UHGV virus genome: UHGV-1374414
Length of the DNA stretch: 45,123 bases
DNA from: a virus
Strand: one strand, 5' to 3'
This document shows, in pieces, positions 10,111 through 44,900 of this stretch (its first letter is position 1; each line of letters starts with the position of its first letter). The position numbers and the translations under genes are program-made. Under the pieces are notes generated by a model. That model saw only the letters and a list, made by a program, of their open reading frames with translations. It ran no database searches and was not told the origin of the DNA.

Positions 10111-10135
10111 CGGCGGGCTTGTCCCGCCATTTTTG
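10111..10135 (+). terminator. intrinsic terminator
   Basis: ggcggg-cttgt-cccgcc hairpin followed by attttt. Confidence 0.6.
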
Positions 10136-10370: not shown

Positions 10371-11795
10371 ATGGCACGATTCCGACGCCGCGAATATCAG
10401 AAGTTGATAACCGCGTTCATCCTCAAGCATAAGCGATGTAATATCTGGGCGACAATGGGATCGGGTAAAACCGGCGCGACAATGTGGGCGCTGAATAAAA
10501 TGTTCCAGACTGGCGTCCTGTCCCATCATGAGGACCGCGTACTGGTGCTGGCCCCGCTGCGTGTTGCGTCAGGTACATGGCCCCCGGAGCAGGAGAAATG
10601 GCGGTTCTCATCCCTGCTGGTCGTAGACGGCACTGGGTCGGAGAAGGAACGTATTGCGGCGCTTGAGAGCGATGCTAACGTGGTTTGTGTTAACTATGAT
10701 GTGGTTGAGTGGCTGGTTGACTATTACGGCGATGCGTGGCCCTTTACGGTCGTTGTTGCCGATGAATCCACTAAGCTGAAAGGCTACCGAAGTAAGCAGG
10801 GAAGTAAGCGCGCCCGCGCACTGGCGGCGATTGCACATAAACACGTCAAGCGCTGGATTAACCTTACCGGCACACCAGCGCCAAACGGCTTGAAAGACTT
10901 ATGGGGTCAGACGTGGTTTGTCGACGGTGGCGAACGACTCGGCAGTAGCTATAAGGCATTTACGGATCGCTGGTTTATTAGCAAGCCTGTTAAGCCTGGC
11001 AGCTTCACGATGCAGCACGCTCCGCTAAAGAACTCCGAGAAAGAAATACAACAACGCCTGTCTGACGTATCACTAACCGTTGACGCGGCTGAATACTTCG
11101 GGTGCGACAAGCCAATCTATACGCCGGTTGTCGTGGACCTGCCGAAGAAAGCCCGCAAGATTTACGACCAGTTTGAAAGCGAGCTATTTGCCGAACTGGA
11201 AAGCGGAACAGTGGAAGCGGCTAACGCTGCGTCGAAGACCATCAAGTGCCTTCAGCTTGCATCTGGGGCCGTGTACAAGGTGGACGAAGACGGCGAACGG
11301 ACCGACGAGTGGGTGAAGATTCACGACGCGAAGCTGGACGCGCTTGAAAGTATCGTGGAGGAATTGAACGGGGCGCCGTTGCTCGTTGCGTATCAGTATA
11401 AGCATGACCTTGCACGTCTTAAGAAGAAATTTCCGCACGGCGTTGCTTTGGGTAAAGGAAAGCAGGGCAATAAGGATATGGAAGCATGGAACAGGGGCGA
11501 GATCCCCATCATGTTTGCACACCCGGCATCGGCGGGCCACGGCCTCAACCTGCAGGATGGCGGACATCACCTGGCAATCTTCTCCGATACCTGGAACTTT
11601 GAGCACTTTTCGCAGATCGTTGAACGTATCGGGCCGGTTCGCCAGATGCAGGCCGGACACCCTAGACCGGTATTCGTCTACATTATCCAGGCGCGCGGGA
11701 CACTGGACGAATTGGTCGCCGAGCGTCGCGACAGTAAGCGAGATATTCAGGACGATTTGATGGAATACATGAAAGCGAAGAAGGCGCGCAAATGA
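10371..11795 (+). CDS. SNF2/DEAD-like superfamily 2 helicase
   Basis: ATG 10371 (ORF-track start 10281 overlaps upstream gene); motifs GSGKTG, VVADESTKLK, LTGTPAPNGL, HPASAGHGLNLQ. Confidence 0.8.
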   Translation: MARFRRREYQKLITAFILKHKRCNIWATMGSGKTGATMWALNKMFQTGVLSHHEDRVLVLAPLRVASGTWPPEQEKWRFSSLLVVDGTGSEKERIAALESDANVVCVNYDVVEWLVDYYGDAWPFTVVVADESTKLKGYRSKQGSKRARALAAIAHKHVKRWINLTGTPAPNGLKDLWGQTWFVDGGERLGSSYKAFTDRWFISKPVKPGSFTMQHAPLKNSEKEIQQRLSDVSLTVDAAEYFGCDKPIYTPVVVDLPKKARKIYDQFESELFAELESGTVEAANAASKTIKCLQLASGAVYKVDEDGERTDEWVKIHDAKLDALESIVEELNGAPLLVAYQYKHDLARLKKKFPHGVALGKGKQGNKDMEAWNRGEIPIMFAHPASAGHGLNLQDGGHHLAIFSDTWNFEHFSQIVERIGPVRQMQAGHPRPVFVYIIQARGTLDELVAERRDSKRDIQDDLMEYMKAKKARK

Positions 11796-12487
11796 TAATC
11801 TGGTCATTGTTCGACGGCAGCGGCTTGATGATTGAGCGTGCTGCCGAGATGGGGCATAAGTGCTACTGTTTTAACTACTCCGAAGCCGATCACGGGTCTT
11901 ACCTTGACTACCGGATTTATGGTCGCGGGATCCGCTATCGCAATGAGTTTATCGATATGGACTTTGTGGACCGCGCGATGAATGGCGATTTCGGTACGCC
12001 AGATATCATCTATGCGTTCCCTCCGTGTACGGATCTGGCAGTGAGCGGTGCACCAGCTTTCCCGCGCAAGCGTGCGAAAGACCCGGCCTTTCAGCTTAAG
12101 GCGGTGCGCACCGCGAAGATCGCAGCTTACCTGGGTGATTTCTTTGAAGTGCCATATATGATTGAGAATCCGCGCAGTGTTCTTTCCACCCAGTGGCGCA
12201 AGCCGGATCACTCGTTCGACCCGTGGGAGTATGGGGGCTATCTGCCGGAGGATGACGTACACCCGCTCTTCCCGGAATACATCAACGCCCGCGATTCATA
12301 TCCGAAGCTGACCTGCTTATGGACCGGCAACGGCTTCCGTATGCCAGAGAAGAAACCTGTTTTCGTTGAAAAAGGGTACTCGAAGCAGTATAGTCGCCTC
12401 GGAGGCAAATCAGCCCGCACAAAATTAATCCGGTCGCTCACTCCGCGCGGCTTCGCGATAGCGGTTAACGAGGAAAATTTAAGATGA
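11792..12487 (+). CDS. putative DNA cytosine-C5 methyltransferase-like protein (compact, 231 aa)
   Basis: Motif I SLFDGSG, motif IV AFPPCTDLAVSG (PC catalytic Cys), ENP motif; start overlaps helicase stop. Confidence 0.5.
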   Translation: MIIWSLFDGSGLMIERAAEMGHKCYCFNYSEADHGSYLDYRIYGRGIRYRNEFIDMDFVDRAMNGDFGTPDIIYAFPPCTDLAVSGAPAFPRKRAKDPAFQLKAVRTAKIAAYLGDFFEVPYMIENPRSVLSTQWRKPDHSFDPWEYGGYLPEDDVHPLFPEYINARDSYPKLTCLWTGNGFRMPEKKPVFVEKGYSKQYSRLGGKSARTKLIRSLTPRGFAIAVNEENLR

Positions 12488-12807
12488 ATACGACATTCGA
12501 AGCCATCGACTTTTCGGTCGCAATGACTAACCAGCTATTCACCTACGACAGCAAAACCGGCGTCATCCGTCTGAAGTCCACCGGCTGCAAGATTGGCAAC
12601 ATCAATACTGCCGATGGCGGAACACGTATCGAATGCAACGGAAAGACGCTGTCTGGCGCACGCGTGGCGTGGATTATTGAGACGGGCAATACAATCCCTC
12701 CCGGCTTCGCCGTTGTGTGTCGCCAGCGCACACCGGGCCACTACGGCAACCGAATCAGCAATCTGTATTTGGTAGACGTTGCACGCGACCCTAACTTTTA
12801 TGCGTAA
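12484..12807 (+). CDS. hypothetical protein
   Basis: 107 aa; start overlaps upstream stop; weak HNH/AP2-like resemblance only. Confidence 0.5.
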   Translation: MNTTFEAIDFSVAMTNQLFTYDSKTGVIRLKSTGCKIGNINTADGGTRIECNGKTLSGARVAWIIETGNTIPPGFAVVCRQRTPGHYGNRISNLYLVDVARDPNFYA

Positions 12808-14024: not shown

Positions 14025-14491
14025 AATTACTGATTTGCGATTTGGATGGCGTTATTAACGGTTCAAGCGATGCGCGTGCCGACCTGGTTCCGGGTATAAA
14101 AACGAAATCAACCTTCTGGGCAAAGTGGCACAAAGCGCACGTACGCGAAGACCTGAACATGGATATGCTGCCGCTGTTGCGCATGTACAAAGAGCAAGGC
14201 TTCGAGATCGCGTATCTGACCAACCGGCAGCGAGAATGCTGGGACACGACCGCCGAACAACTGGAGGTCTTCCCGGTGGGCCGGTTGTTTATGCGCCATA
14301 TGCAGGACGACACCCCGCCGCCAGAGTTTAAGGCGTGCGCCGTGTTCAAAATGGTTTGCTATGCGGACGTATCGGAACTGGTCATCATTGAAGACTGTCC
14401 GAAGAACATCGCGGCAATTCGTCGGGCGTGTAGCGATCTGGTCCCGAAAATTTACGCAATAAATGTTGCAAAATTTACTTGCAACCAATAG
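14021..14491 (+). CDS. HAD-superfamily phosphatase (nucleotidase / polynucleotide 3'-phosphatase-like)
   Basis: 156 aa; HAD motif I LLICDLDGVI, motif II YLTNR, acidic motif IIEDCP. Confidence 0.55.
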   Translation: MKLLICDLDGVINGSSDARADLVPGIKTKSTFWAKWHKAHVREDLNMDMLPLLRMYKEQGFEIAYLTNRQRECWDTTAEQLEVFPVGRLFMRHMQDDTPPPEFKACAVFKMVCYADVSELVIIEDCPKNIAAIRRACSDLVPKIYAINVAKFTCNQ

Positions 14492-25036: not shown

Positions 25037-27679
25037 TCATCGTTTGTAAAGTACACCACCCGGTTTCGTCGCTTTCACGATCTCGGCCTTCACCGCTTCG
25101 GTGATTTGCTTTCCGAACGCCTGCGCGGTGCGCGGGTCTGGTCCGCTAACACTGGTATCCGTCTTACCGGTCCCCATGTTAACGTTGGTCGTTACAATCA
25201 TCCCTCCGCCTACACCGGCAGCGGCAACGCCCAGTTTGCCGTCCGGCCCGCGCTTCAGTGGCATGATGGCTTCGGGTCCGGCCTCCCCCATCAATCCTGC
25301 GCCCTTAGCGAACGCCTGGACGCCATAACTGAAAAAGGTGGGCTGGCTTACCACTTGCCCCGAATAGGCCGCTAGGTTGCCCCCTGCGTACGCTCCGCCG
25401 TCCGCATTCTTAGTGAGGCCGGAAAAGATAGCGCCGAACAATCCGTTTTTGCCGCCGTCGCCACCGAAAGCGCTAACGATGGACTTGAACGCCTGCGAGG
25501 TAGCCAGCTTTATTAATTCGCTCAGAATGGACTTAACCATATCTTTTGCGTTCAGCTTGCCAGTCTCGAAAAACTCGTTCATCGTGTCCTGCATAGCGCC
25601 GAACGTGAATTTTGTGAGTGACGCCATCTGCGTATAGCCGTTACCCATTTCATCCACGCTATCCTTAAGCCCACGGCTGAATCCATCCCATAGTGAGGCG
25701 TTAGCACCGGTCTGTGCTTCCTGCACTTCGCGCAGCTTAGACACCGCCAGATCAATATCGGTATCGTTAGCGCCCACCCGCTTCAGGCGGTCAATTAGCT
25801 GCAATTCTTCGCGCAGGTTAGCCGCTTCGCGAGTGGAAAGCGCATAGCCCGCCGCGGTTGCTTTTAGCTCGGCGTTCTGGTTCTTAACGAAGGCGTCGAT
25901 CTGCGCGTGCGCCTTGACCTGCTTCTCTTTCGCGTCCAGCAATTTAGCTTCTTCTACGATCTGCTCGCGGACTTCCTTCACGCGCCCGAACTCGACTAAT
26001 TGCTGCTTCTCTGCTGCCGTTAGTGCCCTTTCTTTGCTTGCGGCGATTAACTGCTCATTATCCGCGATCAGCTTGTTTAGGGCCGCTTGCGCGCGTTGCG
26101 TGCGGGTCTGCGTCGAGGAGTTGGCTTCGATCTGCTTTCCAGACTCACGAAGCTGTGCCAGTTCGCTTCGCGCGACTTCCAGCATTTTCAGCCCGGCATC
26201 GACTCGAATAGCGGCGGCCTTCTTCGGGGCGGGGTCTTTGTAACGCTTGTTTACCTGCTTCACCGCCTCGGCAAGCTCTTTCTCGTCAATCACGCCGCGC
26301 TTATTAAGCAAATTGAGGCGGGCGATCTCGTCGGCGCGCCTCTTCGCGTTGGTTGCGTACTCCTTCTCAAACGCAGCGCGGTCGCGGGCGGTGCGGTTTG
26401 CCTCTTCGTTCGACTTTGCTGCTTCATCCGCGGCGCGGGCGTTGTCACGCTCCGCACGGTTACGCAGGGTGAGCGACGCCACTACTTTTTCCTGGGCTAC
26501 CAGTTCGCTATAAAGCATGTTAATACGTGCTTTCTGCGCCTCGGTCATTACCCCACCGGCAGCGTTTACCGCTTTCATCTCGGCATAATAGGCCGTAGTC
26601 ATGCGCTGCAAGGATTCCCGCGCTTTCATCTCGGACTCATTCGAGGACTGCGCGCGACCCACATCCAGGATTGCATCCCACATAGATTTCGCTGCCGATG
26701 TGACGACGTTCATCGACCGCTCAAGCGTGCCCATGTTGGACTTAATATCGTTGGTCATAGTGGTGAACGACGCGGCTGCGGTTTTGTTAGCCAGCGCCAC
26801 TGCTTCAGTCTCACGACCCATATCCACAAGCGACTGCACCTGCTGGATCTGCGCTTCGTTTACGACGTGATACTTATCCGCCAATGCTCGCAAGCCGCCT
26901 ACCGGGTCGGTTGACAGCTTCGCCACCGCCGCGACCACATCCTCGATCGGCTGGCTGGATACCTTCGAAAAATCATTCACCACTTTCGCCAGCGTGCCGA
27001 AGTCTGCACCCGCTTTCACACCAGCCGCCGCCAGTGCCTGGATTGTGTCACGCGTTTTACGGAATGACCCGCCCATGCGCTCGGCGTTCTCGGATAGCAC
27101 CAGGATCTGGTTTGCCGTTAGGCCGGAAATGTTACCTGACAGCGCCAGCGTCTTGTTAAGCGCTGCGACCTGGTTCTCTGCGCGGGACGTAATTGCCACG
27201 CCCACGCCTAACGTTGCCGTTACGGCGGCAAGGCCGATCCCTACTGGGCCGAGGAAGCCCGCAACAAAACGCAGCGTGTTACCCAGTCCGCCGAACGCCC
27301 CGGTAAGCTGTGGTAACTGCTGAAGCATAACGCGGTGCACCGGCATACCCATCTCAAGCGTAACTGCGATATCCTGTAACTGGAATGCGGCGTTACGCGA
27401 GGCAAAGCCCAGGTTTTTGGTCGACATGCCTAACCGGTTGGCAAGTCGCTCCTGTTTCGTCATGCCATCGGCGGCGCGCTGCGATTCGTTCGCCAGCTTT
27501 TCCATTCCTCCCGCGGCGTCACTCGTCACCTTTTTGGATTTGCCGAGGGTGTCGTTTAATTTCTTAACCTTGTTTTCTGTGTTCTCGGATTTCTGTGCGA
27601 AGGAGTCCAACACAGTATTTGCCGTTCTGATTTGTGCAACATCCGCCTTCAGCGTGATGCCTGCTGCTTGATCTGCCAT
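25037..27679 (-). CDS. tail tape measure protein
   Basis: 880 aa; Ala/Gln/Lys-rich, coiled-coil-like; SD AAGGGGA; position between chaperone and distal tail genes. Confidence 0.85.
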   Translation of the reverse strand: MADQAAGITLKADVAQIRTANTVLDSFAQKSENTENKVKKLNDTLGKSKKVTSDAAGGMEKLANESQRAADGMTKQERLANRLGMSTKNLGFASRNAAFQLQDIAVTLEMGMPVHRVMLQQLPQLTGAFGGLGNTLRFVAGFLGPVGIGLAAVTATLGVGVAITSRAENQVAALNKTLALSGNISGLTANQILVLSENAERMGGSFRKTRDTIQALAAAGVKAGADFGTLAKVVNDFSKVSSQPIEDVVAAVAKLSTDPVGGLRALADKYHVVNEAQIQQVQSLVDMGRETEAVALANKTAAASFTTMTNDIKSNMGTLERSMNVVTSAAKSMWDAILDVGRAQSSNESEMKARESLQRMTTAYYAEMKAVNAAGGVMTEAQKARINMLYSELVAQEKVVASLTLRNRAERDNARAADEAAKSNEEANRTARDRAAFEKEYATNAKRRADEIARLNLLNKRGVIDEKELAEAVKQVNKRYKDPAPKKAAAIRVDAGLKMLEVARSELAQLRESGKQIEANSSTQTRTQRAQAALNKLIADNEQLIAASKERALTAAEKQQLVEFGRVKEVREQIVEEAKLLDAKEKQVKAHAQIDAFVKNQNAELKATAAGYALSTREAANLREELQLIDRLKRVGANDTDIDLAVSKLREVQEAQTGANASLWDGFSRGLKDSVDEMGNGYTQMASLTKFTFGAMQDTMNEFFETGKLNAKDMVKSILSELIKLATSQAFKSIVSAFGGDGGKNGLFGAIFSGLTKNADGGAYAGGNLAAYSGQVVSQPTFFSYGVQAFAKGAGLMGEAGPEAIMPLKRGPDGKLGVAAAGVGGGMIVTTNVNMGTGKTDTSVSGPDPRTAQAFGKQITEAVKAEIVKATKPGGVLYKR

Positions 27680-27744
27680 TATGCAGTCCCCTTTTTTTTA
27701 TGCAGTTGCCGATTGACATTGTATCAGCGAATTTCAAACAAACC

Positions 27745-27918
27745 TTATGCAGTCTCAGACGAGGGGGACCATTGACCCCCGTCTAGTCTGAAAGACTGGG
27801 GTTTGTCCCGCCTGTCCCGATCGGCTAAAAACCGCGGCAGCACTGGCTGGGGCGGGGTGCTGTCCCGCTTTGTCCCGCCCATTGTTTGTCCCGCTTTCTG
27901 TCCCGCTTACTTTATGCA
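27745..27918. repeat. composite repeat element copy 1: GC-rich hairpins followed by array of TGTCCCGC iterons, bounded by TTATGCA motifs
   Basis: Hairpin cagacgaggggg/cccccgtctag 27756-27786; six TGTCCCG(C) direct repeats (27794, 27803, 27861, 27871, 27886, 27898); about 85 percent identical to 44690-44873. Confidence 0.8.
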
Positions 27919-27929
27919 CGAAATCCGAA

Positions 27930-28062
27930 TAGGTATGCACATTTACAGGGCGGGACAAAACGGGACGTCCCGCTTGTCCCGTTTTGAGTTTATGCAGTGG
28001 AAGTGAGTAGGTATGCAGTTTTGCAGGTGCGGGACAAAACGGGACGTCCCGCTTGTCCCGCT
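27930..28062. repeat. two tandem ~80-bp units each containing a 33-bp palindromic core GCGGGACAAAACGGGACGTCCCGCTTGTCCCG
   Basis: Cores at 27949-27981 and 28028-28060 with perfect 12-bp palindrome CGGGACGTCCCG; each preceded by GTATGCA. Confidence 0.8.
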
Positions 28063-28742
28063 TCACTGTGCGGGGTTCTGCTGCGCCATCTCATCAAGCG
28101 CAATTCGTTCCATTAGCTTGATATCTTTAAACGCGCGCTGCTCGTTTTCGATACCGTGCATCTTAAATAACCACTCCAGCACGCCGTAGTCGATGCCGTA
28201 TGCGCCACCAAATCCGGTGCGCCATTGCGTTGAGCAATCTGTGAAGACTGCGACTACCTTCGCGTTGTCGGGCCATAGCGCAACAGGCGGACAAACATCT
28301 TCGGGGGCCGCGCCCCATAAACTTGCGGCTAAATCTTCGGAGGGTGGCGGCGGGCCATAAAAGCGTCGCGCCGCCTCAATTAGTTTTTTTCACGCAATCC
28401 CATCAGTTCGAGATAGTACGACGTGTGGAACACACCGAACGCGCGTGGGTAGTTGACCACCAGGCGGCGGACGTTCTCCGCGTTGAATTCGTCTGGCAGA
28501 TTCCAGCCTTCTGCGACGTGCATGATGGCCTCGACCATAACGTTAAAGCCGTCCGGGTCATTGTCGTCATATTCCGACAGCTTGCGTTCAGTGTCCTGCA
28601 TGGTCTGCGAAAATTCGTCGATCGGGCGGTGGCGTACGGTAAACGTCATTTTGCCGGGTTCGGTCTCACCAGGGCGCGGGATCTCAATCGGCAGCTTAAA
28701 GGTTGGTTTAGGGTCAAGTGTGAAGAGTGGTGCTTTAGCCAT
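28063..28742 (-). CDS. tail assembly chaperone G-T fusion made by programmed -1 ribosomal frameshift
   Basis: G frame ends at A7 run (mRNA G AAA AAA AC UAA); -1 frame then stays open about 105 codons to TGA at 28063-28065. Confidence 0.6.
28380..28742 (-). CDS. tail assembly chaperone (lambda G-like)
   Basis: ATG 28742 with GGAGA SD (ORF-track start 28757 is TTG); 120 aa; between major tail and tape measure genes. Confidence 0.7.
   Translation of the reverse strand: MAKAPLFTLDPKPTFKLPIEIPRPGETEPGKMTFTVRHRPIDEFSQTMQDTERKLSEYDDNDPDGFNVMVEAIMHVAEGWNLPDEFNAENVRRLVVNYPRAFGVFHTSYYLELMGLREKN
28383..28389 (-). other. -1 frameshift slippery heptamer A_AAA_AAC
   Basis: Seven consecutive A on minus strand (plus-strand T7 at 28384-28390) two codons before G stop. 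Confidence 0.55.
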
Positions 28743-28758
28743 TGTAGTATTCTCCAAT

Positions 28759-28781
28759 AAAAAAAGGGCCGTGCTGGCCCC
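28759..28781 (-). terminator. intrinsic terminator/attenuator after major tail gene
   Basis: Minus strand: gggcc-agcac-ggccc hairpin followed by T7. Confidence 0.6.
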
Positions 28782-28811
28782 ATATTAACACTCGCTATTT
28801 AAGCGACCAAA

Positions 28812-29537
28812 TCAAGACAATGCCTCGACCAGATCCTTACGGTAGATAACCATATCAGACTGCATGGTCAGCGTGGATTGCACCGTTTCCACGTTGTTTA
28901 CTTCAGCGGAAGGAATCTTCTGGAAAGATACCTTTGCCGGGTAAATACGGATCTCACCTTTGCCGCTTGCCGCTGCCGGGTTAGTGAACTTAATCACAGT
29001 GGTTTTCTGTGTGTCGTCCAGGTCTTCCAGGATTGGGCGGATCGGGTCTTCTTCGTCGTGGGTGAAGGTGTAAGTCTGCACAAACGGATTTTTCGTGGTG
29101 TTCAGACTGATCGCGGTGTTCACCTGCAACGGCTGGAAGGTAGTAGTCTGCTGGTCGCCACCAGACACGGCAACGTTAGTAATGAAAGGGAAGTCGATAA
29201 AGCTCGACACCTTCACCACTTCGCCCGGAGTGCCTACACCAAACGCGCCAGTAGGATATTTGGTCACGTCCGAGGTGTCGAAGCGCGCCAGCGTAACGTC
29301 GTTGGTAGCCACTTTACCCACGAGGAACGCGCGGTTCAGCGCACGGACCCACGGAGTTTTAGTGAACATTACCACGTCGCCAACCTTCAGGCCATGAGAA
29401 GCCGCGCAGGTGATAACGCAACCTTTCGTAAGATCAGAGATAGACGCGGCTGCGTTGGTAGCTGCCGTAACAGCGATGCCGCTGCCCAGTACGGACCCAA
29501 TCTGGACGCTGGACCCGTTAGGAAGTTGATAACCCAT
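28812..29537 (-). CDS. major tail protein
   Basis: 241 aa; SD AGGAG; followed by attenuator then G/G-T; position typical of lambda V. Confidence 0.65.
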   Translation of the reverse strand: MGYQLPNGSSVQIGSVLGSGIAVTAATNAAASISDLTKGCVITCAASHGLKVGDVVMFTKTPWVRALNRAFLVGKVATNDVTLARFDTSDVTKYPTGAFGVGTPGEVVKVSSFIDFPFITNVAVSGGDQQTTTFQPLQVNTAISLNTTKNPFVQTYTFTHDEEDPIRPILEDLDDTQKTTVIKFTNPAAASGKGEIRIYPAKVSFQKIPSAEVNNVETVQSTLTMQSDMVIYRKDLVEALS

Positions 29538-44689: not shown

Positions 44690-44873
44690 TTATTCAGTCT
44701 CAGACGAGGGGGGCCACTGACCCCCGTCTAGTCTGAAAGACTGGGGTGCTGTCCCGCTGTCCCGCTCCTCTGGAAGCCGCGCCATCCGGGGCGGGACTGG
44801 GGTGCTGTCCCGCTTTGTCCCGCCCCTTGTTTGTCCCGCTTTTTGTCCCGCTTACTTTATGCAATAAAACTGC
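44690..44873. repeat. composite repeat element copy 2 (hairpins + TGTCCCGC iteron array), near primase gene 3' end
   Basis: About 85 percent identical to 27745-27918 in same orientation; five to six TGTCCCGC iterons; AT-rich tract follows. Confidence 0.8.
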
Positions 44874-44900
44874 ATAACTATTCACTATATCTACACTACA

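What the first reader, a model, noticed from the sequence alone, without database searches (positions are those of the whole stretch)
28063..28742. Programmed -1 frameshift producing a G-T tail chaperone fusion at an A7 slippery run
The G ORF ends two codons after the heptamer A AAA AAC; the -1 frame then stays open about 105 codons to TGA at 28063-28065. This fits the conserved G/G-T arrangement upstream of tape measure genes and explains the otherwise unassigned region 28063-28380. The T-frame stop abuts the second palindromic unit.
Basis: partly seen in the sequence, partly recalled or inferred. Interest (0 to 1): 0.45.

Follow-up and report, generated by a model that had tools for sequence, protein, structure and literature searches.

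The report
Phage tail chaperone G/G-T frameshift
This is the ordinary, well-known "G/G-T" programmed -1 ribosomal frameshift that long-tailed phages use to make a little of an extended tail-assembly chaperone; it is real here but left unannotated in the 13 annotated records of this phage genus that I inspected.

Summary
On the minus strand a 120-codon ORF (28742-28380, Pfam Phage_TAC_4) ends ...GAA AAA AAC TAA. The heptamer A AAA AAC (28389-28383) lies inside an A7 run. The -1 frame opens just before it, after TGA 28392-28390, and runs 106 more codons to TGA 28065-28063, encoding a complete DUF1799 domain. One detail is wrong: the G stop follows the heptamer directly, not two codons later.

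The window is a Dhillonvirus (HK578-like E. coli siphophage). The T frame has no ATG/GTG/TTG until codon 68 of 106. Those start-less codons still evolve as coding sequence: variable sites 13/3/48 by codon position, dN/dS about 0.06.

The same layout recurs in 25 distinct Dhillonvirus sequences, in T1-like phages and in 52 distinct metagenomic viral loci. One locus carries a different slippery heptamer, G GGA AAC. The predicted 226-aa fusion aligns end to end with one PHROG family.

A GC hairpin 7 nt downstream is invariant at synonymous sites but shows no compensatory changes.

It is a new member of a known kind, of low interest beyond correcting annotation. A 383-bp repeat-rich spacer separates T from the tape measure gene, which is unusual.

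The parts
28380..28742 (-). Gene G: tail assembly chaperone, 120 aa plus TAA. This is the major product, made by normal termination.
   Evidence: Translation. Pfam PF08748 Phage_TAC_4, E = 1.7e-23, covering the whole protein. GGAG lies 9 nt upstream of the ATG. Annotated as a 363-nt CDS in all 13 annotated Dhillonvirus records inspected. dN/dS 0.045.
28383..28389 (-). Slippery heptamer A AAA AAC. The zero-frame codons AAA (Lys) and AAC (Asn) are the last two sense codons of G. It lies inside the A7 run 28384-28390.
   Evidence: Invariant in 25 distinct Dhillonvirus sequences although about 70% of third codon positions vary. Present in 51 of 52 distinct DUF1799 loci and replaced by G GGA AAC in L101. 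A_AAA_AAC is the proven IS1 -1 frameshift heptamer in E. coli (PMC4066793).
28380..28382 (-). Zero-frame stop TAA, immediately 3' of the heptamer.
   Evidence: The stop sits at exactly this position relative to the start of T homology in all 52 distinct loci.
28390..28392 (-). TGA in the -1 frame. It sets the 5' limit of the region where a -1 shift can yield a fusion.
   Evidence: Translation of the -1 frame starts with a stop, then KKLIEA....
28346..28375 (-). Candidate frameshift-stimulating hairpin. The 5' arm is GGCGGCG (28375-28369), the loop is 16 nt, and the 3' arm is CGCCGCC (28352-28346). It starts 7 nt after the heptamer.
   Evidence: MFE and centroid fold. RNAalifold consensus with 7 of 7 GC pairs kept, one C-to-U change giving U-G, and no compensatory changes. 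The arms are invariant at 5 synonymous positions while 4 of 5 loop codons vary. Stability is not better than shuffles. This part is inferred, not shown.
28063..28383 (-). T segment: 106 codons (CTA ... CAG) plus TGA, read only after a -1 shift. Base 28383 is read twice. The G-T product is complement(join(28383..28742, 28063..28383)), 226 aa.
   Evidence: The first in-frame ATG/GTG/TTG is codon 68. Codons 2-67 have variable sites 13/3/48 by codon position (p = 4e-12). dN/dS is 0.059. The predicted fusion aligns as one stretch, residues 1-223 against positions 1-212 of 213, with phrog_17368, E = 7.2e-32.
28087..28317 (-). DUF1799 domain within the T segment.
   Evidence: Pfam PF08809, E = 2.9e-21, residues 25-101 of the -1 translation matching profile positions 1-80 of 80. 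1131 representative proteins at E <= 1e-3; the 150 listed are all short, 38-150 aa.
28812..29537 (-). Context: major tail (tube) protein gene, upstream of G.
   Evidence: Pfam PF08813 Phage_tail_3, E = 6.2e-33.
25037..27679 (-). Context: tape measure protein gene, downstream of T after a 383-bp spacer.
   Evidence: Pfam PF06791 TMP_2, E = 1.9e-43, and PF09718.

Best explanation
Gene G (28742-28380, minus strand) encodes a 120-aa tail assembly chaperone.

Most ribosomes terminate at TAA. A minority slip back one base on A AAA AAC, with tRNA-Lys on AAA in the P site and tRNA-Asn on AAC in the A site. A single-tRNA slip next to the adjacent stop is also possible. The shifted ribosomes then read CTA ATT GAG ... 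for 106 further codons and make a 226-aa G-T fusion whose C-terminal part is a DUF1799 domain. The junction would read ...GLREKN-LIEAARR, or ...REKK-LIEAARR if the slip occurs before Asn is decoded.

The stop codon directly after the heptamer and a 7-bp all-GC hairpin 7 nt downstream probably slow the ribosome and raise the slip rate. This step is inferred.

The function is inferred by analogy with lambda gpG/gpGT. G and the G part of G-T coat the tape measure protein. The T part recruits the tail tube protein so that it polymerises around the tape measure. Neither protein stays in the virion, and the fixed low G-T:G ratio set by the slip rate matters for assembly.

Shown here: the sequence anatomy, the family assignments, coding selection on a start-less -1 ORF, and conservation of the slip site.

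Not shown: the fusion protein itself, its abundance, and the binding partners.
For: Anatomy and position:
- Sequence anatomy.
- Tube gene, then G/T, then tape measure gene, with Pfam PF08813 / PF08748 + PF08809 / PF06791.

The T frame is translated but has no start:
- No ATG/GTG/TTG before codon 68 of 106.
- Codons 2-67 vary 13/3/48 by codon position (chi-square p = 4e-12).
- dN/dS is 0.059 at dS about 1.
- The spacer after T shows no such periodicity: 57/52/47.

Conservation of the slip site:
- GAA AAA AAC TAA is identical in 25 distinct Dhillonvirus sequences, while neighbouring codons vary synonymously.
- T1-like Drexlerviridae and IMG/VR relatives at about 40% identity keep ...KN-stop with AAAAAAC and an open -1 DUF1799 frame.
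- In 52 distinct loci the G stop is always 7 nt after the start of T homology.
- The single locus lacking A AAA AAC has G GGA AAC, another canonical slippery heptamer.
- Pectobacterium phage Taid has CAA AAG TAA, an A_AAG slip site.

Fusion and uniqueness:
- The predicted fusion is collinear with phrog_17368 over its full length: 111.8 bits, against 52.7 and 50.2 for the two halves alone.
- It is the only such start-less junction in this genome.

Precedent from the literature:
- A_AAA_AAC is a proven -1 site in E. coli, in IS1 (PMC4066793).
- The lambda mechanism and its wide conservation are reviewed in PMC5009743.
- The frameshift has been noted in the related eiAU phages (PMC3025963) and in a T1-like phage (PMC8407766).
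Against: - There is no direct evidence for the fusion protein: no proteomics or reporter data for any Dhillonvirus were found.
- None of the 13 annotated Dhillonvirus records inspected carries a joined CDS.
- The hairpin is not more stable than shuffled sequence (z = 0.62 and -0.36).
- The hairpin shows no compensatory substitutions and is not kept in part of the larger enterobacterial clade.
- No naturally in-frame G-T fusion appeared among the 150 listed DUF1799 representatives.
- An A7 run also allows some transcriptional slippage, which would give the same -1 product.
- The T stop is 383 bp from the tape measure gene, unlike lambda, where T overlaps H.
Confidence: 0.9

Rival explanations
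1. The fusion is made mainly by transcriptional slippage. RNA polymerase adds one extra A on the A7 run, giving an mRNA in which G and T are in frame (...REKKLIEA...). The ribosome does not slip.
For: The run is seven A's (28384-28390), and it is also seven in the large enterobacterial clade. Homopolymer runs are known sources of polymerase slippage, as mentioned in PMC4066793 and PMC5009743. The protein would be almost identical.
Against: Homologous junctions with shorter or no homopolymer runs keep a ribosomal slip motif. T1-like phages have GTA AAA AAC / GCA AAA AAC, with six A's. L101 has GAG GGA AAC. Phage Taid has CAA AAG. What is conserved is X_XXY_YYZ in the G frame next to the stop, not run length. 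From general knowledge, efficient slippage by E. coli RNA polymerase usually needs runs of about 9 or more.
Confidence: 0.05
2. T is not fused to G. Short peptides are started independently inside the T frame (for example MHGIENE... 32 aa, or from GTG at codon 68) or at the ATT right after the G stop, as several GenBank records annotate.
For: SECphi18, CS16, Opt212, McMelon and EE09 annotate 32-51-aa ORFs here. HK578 annotates a 104-codon CDS starting at ATT on the last base of the G stop. Gene callers worldwide call DUF1799 as stand-alone small ORFs.
Against: The DUF1799 domain spans T residues 25-101, so any start at codon 68 or later would cut it. The 66 codons upstream of the first possible start are under strong coding selection. 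Homology between distant relatives begins exactly at the slip site (KKL...), in nearly every tblastn match. No Shine-Dalgarno sequence precedes the ATT; by direct reading it is preceded by AAAAAAC TA. The called N-termini of DUF1799 proteins are scattered relative to the domain, as expected if there is no true start.
Confidence: 0.03
3. It is an artefact or a decayed gene: a homopolymer sequencing error or a real indel split a single G-T gene, and the T part is a remnant.
For: Homopolymer runs are error-prone. Two related records are visibly poor here: Zar3M has many N's, and Bas84 has a poly-C stretch in place of the T end.
Against: The same frame relation holds in 159 independently sequenced phage records, in T1-like phages and in 52 distinct metagenomic loci. 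The T frame has dN/dS 0.06.
Confidence: 0.01

Closest known systems
Phage lambda gpG / gpGT (Levin, Hendrix and Casjens 1993; Xu, Hendrix and Duda 2004, 2013, 2014; reviewed in PMC5009743)
   Same: The gene order is the same: tube gene, then G, then T in the -1 frame, then the tape measure gene. The slip site lies near the 3' end of G. T has no start of its own. The expected products are a short abundant one and a rare extended one.
   Different: The protein families differ. Lambda G is PF06894 and lambda T is PF06223; here they are PF08748 and PF08809. There is no pairwise similarity (E = 4.6 and 0.23). The lambda heptamer is G GGA AAG, a few codons before the G stop. Here it is A AAA AAC directly against the stop. 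Lambda T overlaps gene H, whereas here a 383-bp repeat-rich spacer intervenes.
Tape measure chaperone pair of T1-like phages (Drexlerviridae; a frameshift is reported for phage Solomon, PMC8407766)
   Same: The T segment is homologous: DUF1799, 36-40% identity by tblastn. The G tail is ...KN-stop. The heptamer is the same A AAA AAC directly before the stop. A hairpin is predicted about 7 nt downstream.
   Different: The A run is six, not seven. T is followed by the tape measure gene after about 40 nt, not 383 bp. The G proteins are shorter, 105 aa.
IS1 insA-insB' -1 frameshift in E. coli
   Same: The heptamer is identical, A_AAA_AAC, and it works in the same host translation system. It is described as a proven case (PMC4066793).
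   Different: The proteins and biology are unrelated (a transposase). That paper says no stimulator is established for IS1. Here a stop codon and a hairpin flank the site.
Edwardsiella phages eiAU/eiDWF/eiMSLS and Sodalis phage SO-1 (relatives of the HK578-like group)
   Same: The paper reports two overlapping ORFs with a frameshift between the major tail and tape measure genes, and relates these phages to SSL-2009a, which it places with Sodalis phage SO-1 (PMC3025963). The HK578 record calls its G and T ORFs 'similar to gp15/gp16 of Sodalis phage SO-1'.
   Different: The slip site is not described in that paper, and I did not examine those genomes directly.

Membership tests
G/G-T tail assembly chaperone with programmed -1 frameshift (Xu, Hendrix and Duda 2004) | Located between the major tail (tube) protein gene and the tape measure gene, on the same strand. 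| tested here: met
   Tube gene 28812-29537 (PF08813), G/T 28742-28063, tape measure gene 27679-25037 (PF06791), all on the minus strand. Caveat: there is a 383-bp spacer between T and the tape measure gene.
G/G-T tail assembly chaperone with programmed -1 frameshift (Xu, Hendrix and Duda 2004) | Two ORFs, the second in the -1 frame, overlapping the end of the first and lacking its own initiation signal. | tested here: met
   The -1 frame opens at 28389. The first ATG/GTG/TTG is at codon 68 of 106.
G/G-T tail assembly chaperone with programmed -1 frameshift (Xu, Hendrix and Duda 2004) | A slippery sequence (X XXY YYZ or similar) in the overlap, in the G frame. | tested here: met
   A AAA AAC at 28389-28383, in frame. 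It occupies almost the whole 9-nt overlap.
G/G-T tail assembly chaperone with programmed -1 frameshift (Xu, Hendrix and Duda 2004) | The arrangement and slip site are conserved in relatives despite sequence divergence. | tested here: met
   25 distinct Dhillonvirus sequences, T1-like phages, phage Taid and IMG/VR loci, and 52 distinct loci with one G GGA AAC replacement.
G/G-T tail assembly chaperone with programmed -1 frameshift (Xu, Hendrix and Duda 2004) | The frameshifted fusion protein is actually made, at a low fixed ratio to G. | not testable with these tools
   This needs mass spectrometry, a western blot or a reporter assay. No such data were found in the paper searches.
G/G-T tail assembly chaperone with programmed -1 frameshift (Xu, Hendrix and Duda 2004) | G binds the tape measure protein, T binds the tube protein, and both are absent from virions. 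| not testable with these tools
   Inferred only from lambda (PMC5009743).
Pfam PF08748 Phage_TAC_4 | Score above the curated gathering cut-off over the full-length profile. | tested here: met
   83.6 bits against a cut-off of 21.1. Residues 1-120 match profile positions 1-124 of 124.
Pfam PF08809 DUF1799 | Score above the curated gathering cut-off over the full-length profile. | tested here: met
   75.9 bits against a cut-off of 26. T residues 25-101 match profile positions 1-80 of 80.
Lambda gpG / gpT protein families (PF06894 / PF06223) | Sequence membership in the lambda G and T families. | tested here: not met
   The window proteins do not hit these families, while lambda's own G and T do. 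BLASTP gives E = 4.6 and 0.23. The system works like lambda G/GT but is not a sequence member of its families.
Frameshift-stimulating RNA structure downstream of the slip site | A stable structure 5-9 nt after the heptamer, supported by covariation or by stability beyond chance. | tested here: inconclusive
   A 7-bp GC stem starts 7 nt downstream. Its arms are invariant at synonymous sites while the loop varies. There are no compensatory changes, z-scores are not significant in most lineages, and there is no Rfam match.

The most novel reading that the evidence does not exclude
The slip site, the directly adjacent stop codon and the GC hairpin 7 nt downstream may form one conserved frameshift cassette. 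It would be shared by the TAC_4/DUF1799 chaperone pairs of Dhillonvirus, T1-like phages and many enterobacterial (pro)phages.

In Dhillonvirus, G/G-T may also be transcriptionally uncoupled from the tape measure gene. The spacer holds a terminator-like palindrome and then a second copy of the roughly 190-nt GCGGGACA-repeat module that also lies upstream of the leftward genes at 44.7-44.9 kb. If so, chaperone:tape-measure stoichiometry would be set at both the translational and the transcriptional level.
Probability: 0.3. Interest if true: 0.3.

Novelty: new member of a known kind. Interest (0 to 1): 0.15.

Why it matters
The main value is better annotation. The 318 bases 28063-28380 are not 'unassigned' and do not hold the assorted 32-51-aa 'hypothetical proteins' or opposite-strand ORFs found in public Dhillonvirus records. 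They are the T half of a G-T tail assembly chaperone.

A joined CDS, complement(join(28383..28742, 28063..28383)), could be applied across the 159 related phage records found here, and probably to T1-like phages with the same cassette.

It also assigns a role to Pfam DUF1799: the frameshift-dependent T domain paired with Phage_TAC_4 chaperones.

It does not change what is known about phage tail assembly or about recoding.

Tried and rejected
- Natural in-frame G-T fusions as 'Rosetta stone' evidence. The word-indexed protein search with the fusion returned only 3 short hits. The exhaustive search would not accept the fusion. Run with T alone, its 150 listed hits were all stand-alone proteins of 38-150 aa. 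The result is uninformative rather than negative, because gene callers cannot join frames. phrog_17368 filled this gap.
- Stability of the downstream hairpin against shuffles. It was not significant for this phage, so I do not claim the hairpin as shown.
- Covariation in the hairpin. None was found.
- Rfam. There was no frameshift element or any credible family in 27600-28900.
- Solved structures by sequence for G and T. None were found. NCBIfam also gave none. I did not run structure prediction, because the fusion sequence is not accepted by that tool and a fold would not bear on the frameshift claim.
- A joined CDS annotated in T1-like records. It was not present in the four I opened. Even the lambda RefSeq record lists G and T as separate CDSs, so absence of a join in GenBank says little.
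- A profile built from 17 diverse T sequences was too divergent for the locus finder. A 6-sequence profile worked.
- Locus L034 was fetched at the wrong offset and was not used.

Full report
**What is there**

The coordinates below are on the minus strand.
- A 120-codon ORF starts at ATG 28742-28740. GGAG lies 9 nt upstream.
- It ends ...TTG CGT GAA AAA AAC TAA, with TAA at 28382-28380.
- The run of seven A's is 28390-28384.
- The canonical X XXY YYZ heptamer A AAA AAC is 28389-28383 and is in frame, so AAA and AAC are the last two sense codons.
- In the -1 frame a TGA at 28392-28390 sits directly before the run.
- That frame then reads AAA AAA CTA ATT GAG ... for 106 codons beyond the slip, to TGA 28065-28063.
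- The two frames are therefore jointly open over only about 9 nt, all of it slippery sequence.

One detail is wrong: the G stop follows the heptamer directly, not two codons later. The T stop overlaps by one base the 35-nt palindromic unit 28029-28063.

**What the ORFs are**

Pfam assignments:
- Upstream ORF: PF08748 Phage_TAC_4, a tail assembly chaperone family, E = 1.7e-23, full length.
- -1 ORF: PF08809 DUF1799, E = 2.9e-21, full-length profile, T residues 25-101.
- Gene upstream: tail tube protein (28812-29537, PF08813).
- Next large gene downstream: tape measure protein (25037-27679, PF06791 and PF09718).

PHROGs puts both halves in tail families. The predicted 226-aa fusion aligns in a single stretch, residues 1-223 against profile positions 1-212 of 213, with phrog_17368. 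That match scores 111.8 bits, E = 7.2e-32. The halves alone score 52.7 and 50.2 bits.

**Where the window comes from**

The region is 91-97% identical to nearly all of 159 phage records. Almost all are Escherichia phages of the genus Dhillonvirus, the HK578-like siphophages. At 45,123 bp the window is about the size of those genomes.

**Is the T frame translated, and how?**

I compared 25 distinct Dhillonvirus sequences, 84-97% identical over G plus T.
- Variable sites in the T region fall 23/9/70 on T-frame codon positions 1/2/3. The spacer after T gives 57/52/47 (first 19 sequences).
- The first in-frame ATG, GTG or TTG is T codon 68 of 106.
- The 66 start-less codons before it still vary 13/3/48 (chi-square p = 4e-12).
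- Against the two most divergent members, dN/dS is 0.059 for T and 0.045 for G, at dS about 1.

A complete, conserved protein domain that is under purifying selection and has no initiation codon must be reached from the G frame.

A scan of the whole window found 44 in-frame X_XXY_YYZ heptamers in ORFs of at least 100 aa. Three are followed by more than 100 open -1 codons.
- One (12475-12481) is an ordinary downstream gene with an ATGA overlap, its own ATG and a Shine-Dalgarno sequence.
- One (14470-14476) lies in a minus-strand ORF in a stretch where the longer ORFs are on the plus strand. I take it to be antisense; this was not checked further.
- The third is this site.

**Conservation of the slip site**

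Within Dhillonvirus:
- GAA AAA AAC TAA is invariant in all 25 sequences.
- The codons just upstream vary synonymously: GGA/GGG/GGC, TTG/CTA, CGT/CGA.
- The low-quality Zar3M record has AAT for AAC. That is still slippery and is synonymous in both frames.

In relatives at about 35-45% protein identity:
- T1-like Drexlerviridae (L004, L006) have GTA/GCA AAA AAC TAA.
- IMG/VR contigs (L022-L025) have GAA AAA AAC TGA or TAA.
- Pectobacterium phage Taid has CAA AAG TAA, an A_AAG slip site.
- In each case the -1 frame is open for 105-138 codons and encodes DUF1799.

A profile search of IMG/VR returned 80 loci, 52 of them distinct.
- In all 52 the G-frame stop lies exactly 7 nt after the first residue of T homology, except L101, where the tblastn match starts one residue later and the offset is 4 nt; the stop still follows the heptamer directly.
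- 51 carry A AAA AAC.
- The remaining one (L101) carries G GGA AAC, a different canonical slippery heptamer.
- The T frame is about 106 codons and open in every one.

Homology between distant T segments starts at the slip site itself (KKL...), which is the protein footprint of AAA AAA CTN.

**Mechanism**

A_AAA_AAC is the proven -1 frameshift heptamer of IS1 in E. coli (PMC4066793), so the host's tRNA-Lys and tRNA-Asn can slip on it.

Two flanking features are candidate stimulators.
- The zero-frame stop directly 3' of the heptamer is conserved in position in all 52 loci.
- A hairpin starts 7 nt downstream: GGCGGCG, a 16-nt loop, then CGCCGCC (28375-28346).

Evidence for the hairpin:
- About 70% of third codon positions vary across the 25 sequences.
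- Yet the ten third positions of GAA AAA AAC, CTA ATT GAG GCG GCG and CCG CCG never vary.
- Four of the five loop codons do vary. That is the pattern expected of a stem under selection.
- A more distant relative (L045) keeps the stem through a C-to-U change giving U-G.
- T1-like phages, L023 and L075 have different sequences that fold into a hairpin 7-11 nt downstream.

Evidence against the hairpin:
- There are no compensatory double changes.
- Stability is not above shuffled controls for this phage.
- Part of the large enterobacterial clade breaks the predicted stem.
- There is no Rfam match.

I therefore treat the hairpin as inferred.

Transcriptional slippage on A7 could add to the same product. 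It cannot be the conserved mechanism, because homologues with A6, GGGAAAC or CAAAAG keep a ribosomal slip motif rather than a long run.

**Function by analogy**

In lambda, G and G-T are made at about 30:1. The G part binds the tape measure protein. The T part binds the major tail protein and starts its polymerisation. Neither protein is in the virion (PMC5009743).

The same gene order and logic apply here, but the protein families differ.
- Lambda G is PF06894 and lambda T is PF06223.
- Pairwise similarity to the window proteins is nil.

So the system works like lambda G/GT without being a sequence member of its families.

**Novelty**

The kind is textbook (Levin 1993; Xu 2004, both cited). 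A frameshift here has been noted for the related eiAU phages (PMC3025963) and for a T1-like phage (PMC8407766).

I found no paper describing it for Dhillonvirus. None of the 13 annotated Dhillonvirus records I opened has a joined CDS. They carry a mixture of annotations instead:
- no feature at all;
- 32-51-aa 'hypothetical proteins';
- an opposite-strand ORF;
- in HK578, a DUF1799 CDS drawn from the ATT on the last base of the G stop.

This is a new member of a known kind. It is useful for annotation and for giving DUF1799 a role, and is otherwise unsurprising.

**An oddity beside the finding**

T is not adjacent to the tape measure gene. The 383-bp spacer 27680-28062 holds:
- two 35-nt palindromic units (28029-28063 and 27950-27984);
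- a run of direct GCGGGACA repeats;
- a GC hairpin.

HK578 and WF5505 annotate the first palindromic unit as a terminator.

GCGGGACA occurs 16 times in the window against about 2 expected. The copies are clustered here and at 44750-44851. About 190 nt of the spacer is duplicated at 44.7-44.9 kb.

I did not pursue its function.

Noticed in passing
window 27680-28062 (minus strand), between the T stop and the tape measure start: A 383-bp non-coding spacer, unusual for a G/T-tape measure junction; in lambda T overlaps H. It holds two 35-nt palindromic units (28029-28063 and 27950-27984), at least five direct GCGGGACA repeats (27804-27906) and a GC hairpin. The HK578 and WF5505 records annotate the first palindrome as a rho-independent terminator. 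No periodicity of substitutions, so it is probably non-coding.
   Followed up: partly
window 44700-44890 compared with 27745-27935: About 190 nt of the spacer (TTATGCA..., GCGGGACA repeats, hairpin AGACGGGGGTCA(A/G)TGG(T/C)CCCCCTCGTCT, then GAGACTG(C/A)ATAA) is duplicated upstream of the leftward (minus-strand) genes. GCGGGACA occurs 16 times in the window against about 2 expected, in these two clusters plus singles at 10120 and 11695. It is a candidate regulator-binding or promoter module.
   Followed up: partly
window about 27718-27726 (minus strand): By eye, TGATACAAT, an extended -10-like motif, lies about 40 nt upstream of the tape measure ATG, and GGGGA lies 8 nt before the ATG. The consensus promoter scan found no -35/-10 pair in 27500-28900. 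It may be a separate promoter for the tape measure gene.
   Followed up: no
window 28765-28781 (minus strand): A terminator-like hairpin, GGGGCCAGCACGGCCCT followed by TTTTTTT, lies between the tube gene and G. The CS16 record annotates it as a terminator. It could lower transcription of G/T relative to the abundant tube protein.
   Followed up: no
L101 (IMGVR_UViG_3300046542_000344), about 1198-1210: This is the only one of 52 distinct DUF1799 loci without A AAA AAC. It has GAG GGA AAC TGA, the slippery heptamer G GGA AAC, at the same position. One slip motif has been swapped for another.
   Followed up: partly
L007 (Escherichia phage JohannBuxtorf_Bas84, PQ850611.1), 1177-1190: A run of 12 C's replaces the last 14 codons of T and the first palindromic unit. 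It is either a real deletion or an assembly artefact at the palindrome. T would end in unrelated residues.
   Followed up: no
L031 (Escherichia phage vB_EcoS_Zar3M, OM262541.1), 800-1240: The deposited sequence is peppered with N's. The heptamer reads A AAA AAT rather than AAC, which is still slippery and is synonymous in both frames.
   Followed up: no
Public Dhillonvirus records (L001, L003, L027, L028, L035, L032): Annotation of the T region is inconsistent: 32-51-aa 'hypothetical proteins', a 'DUF1799' fragment, an opposite-strand ORF (SECphi18 gp34), ORFs called inside the repeat spacer, and G itself labelled 'major tail protein' or 'tail length tape measure protein'.
   Followed up: partly
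window 12484-12487: An ordinary ATGA stop/start overlap with a GAGG Shine-Dalgarno sequence lies between ORFs 11792-12487 and 12484-12807. The preceding in-frame AAATTTA heptamer looks like a frameshift site but is not needed. It served as a negative control.
   Followed up: yes
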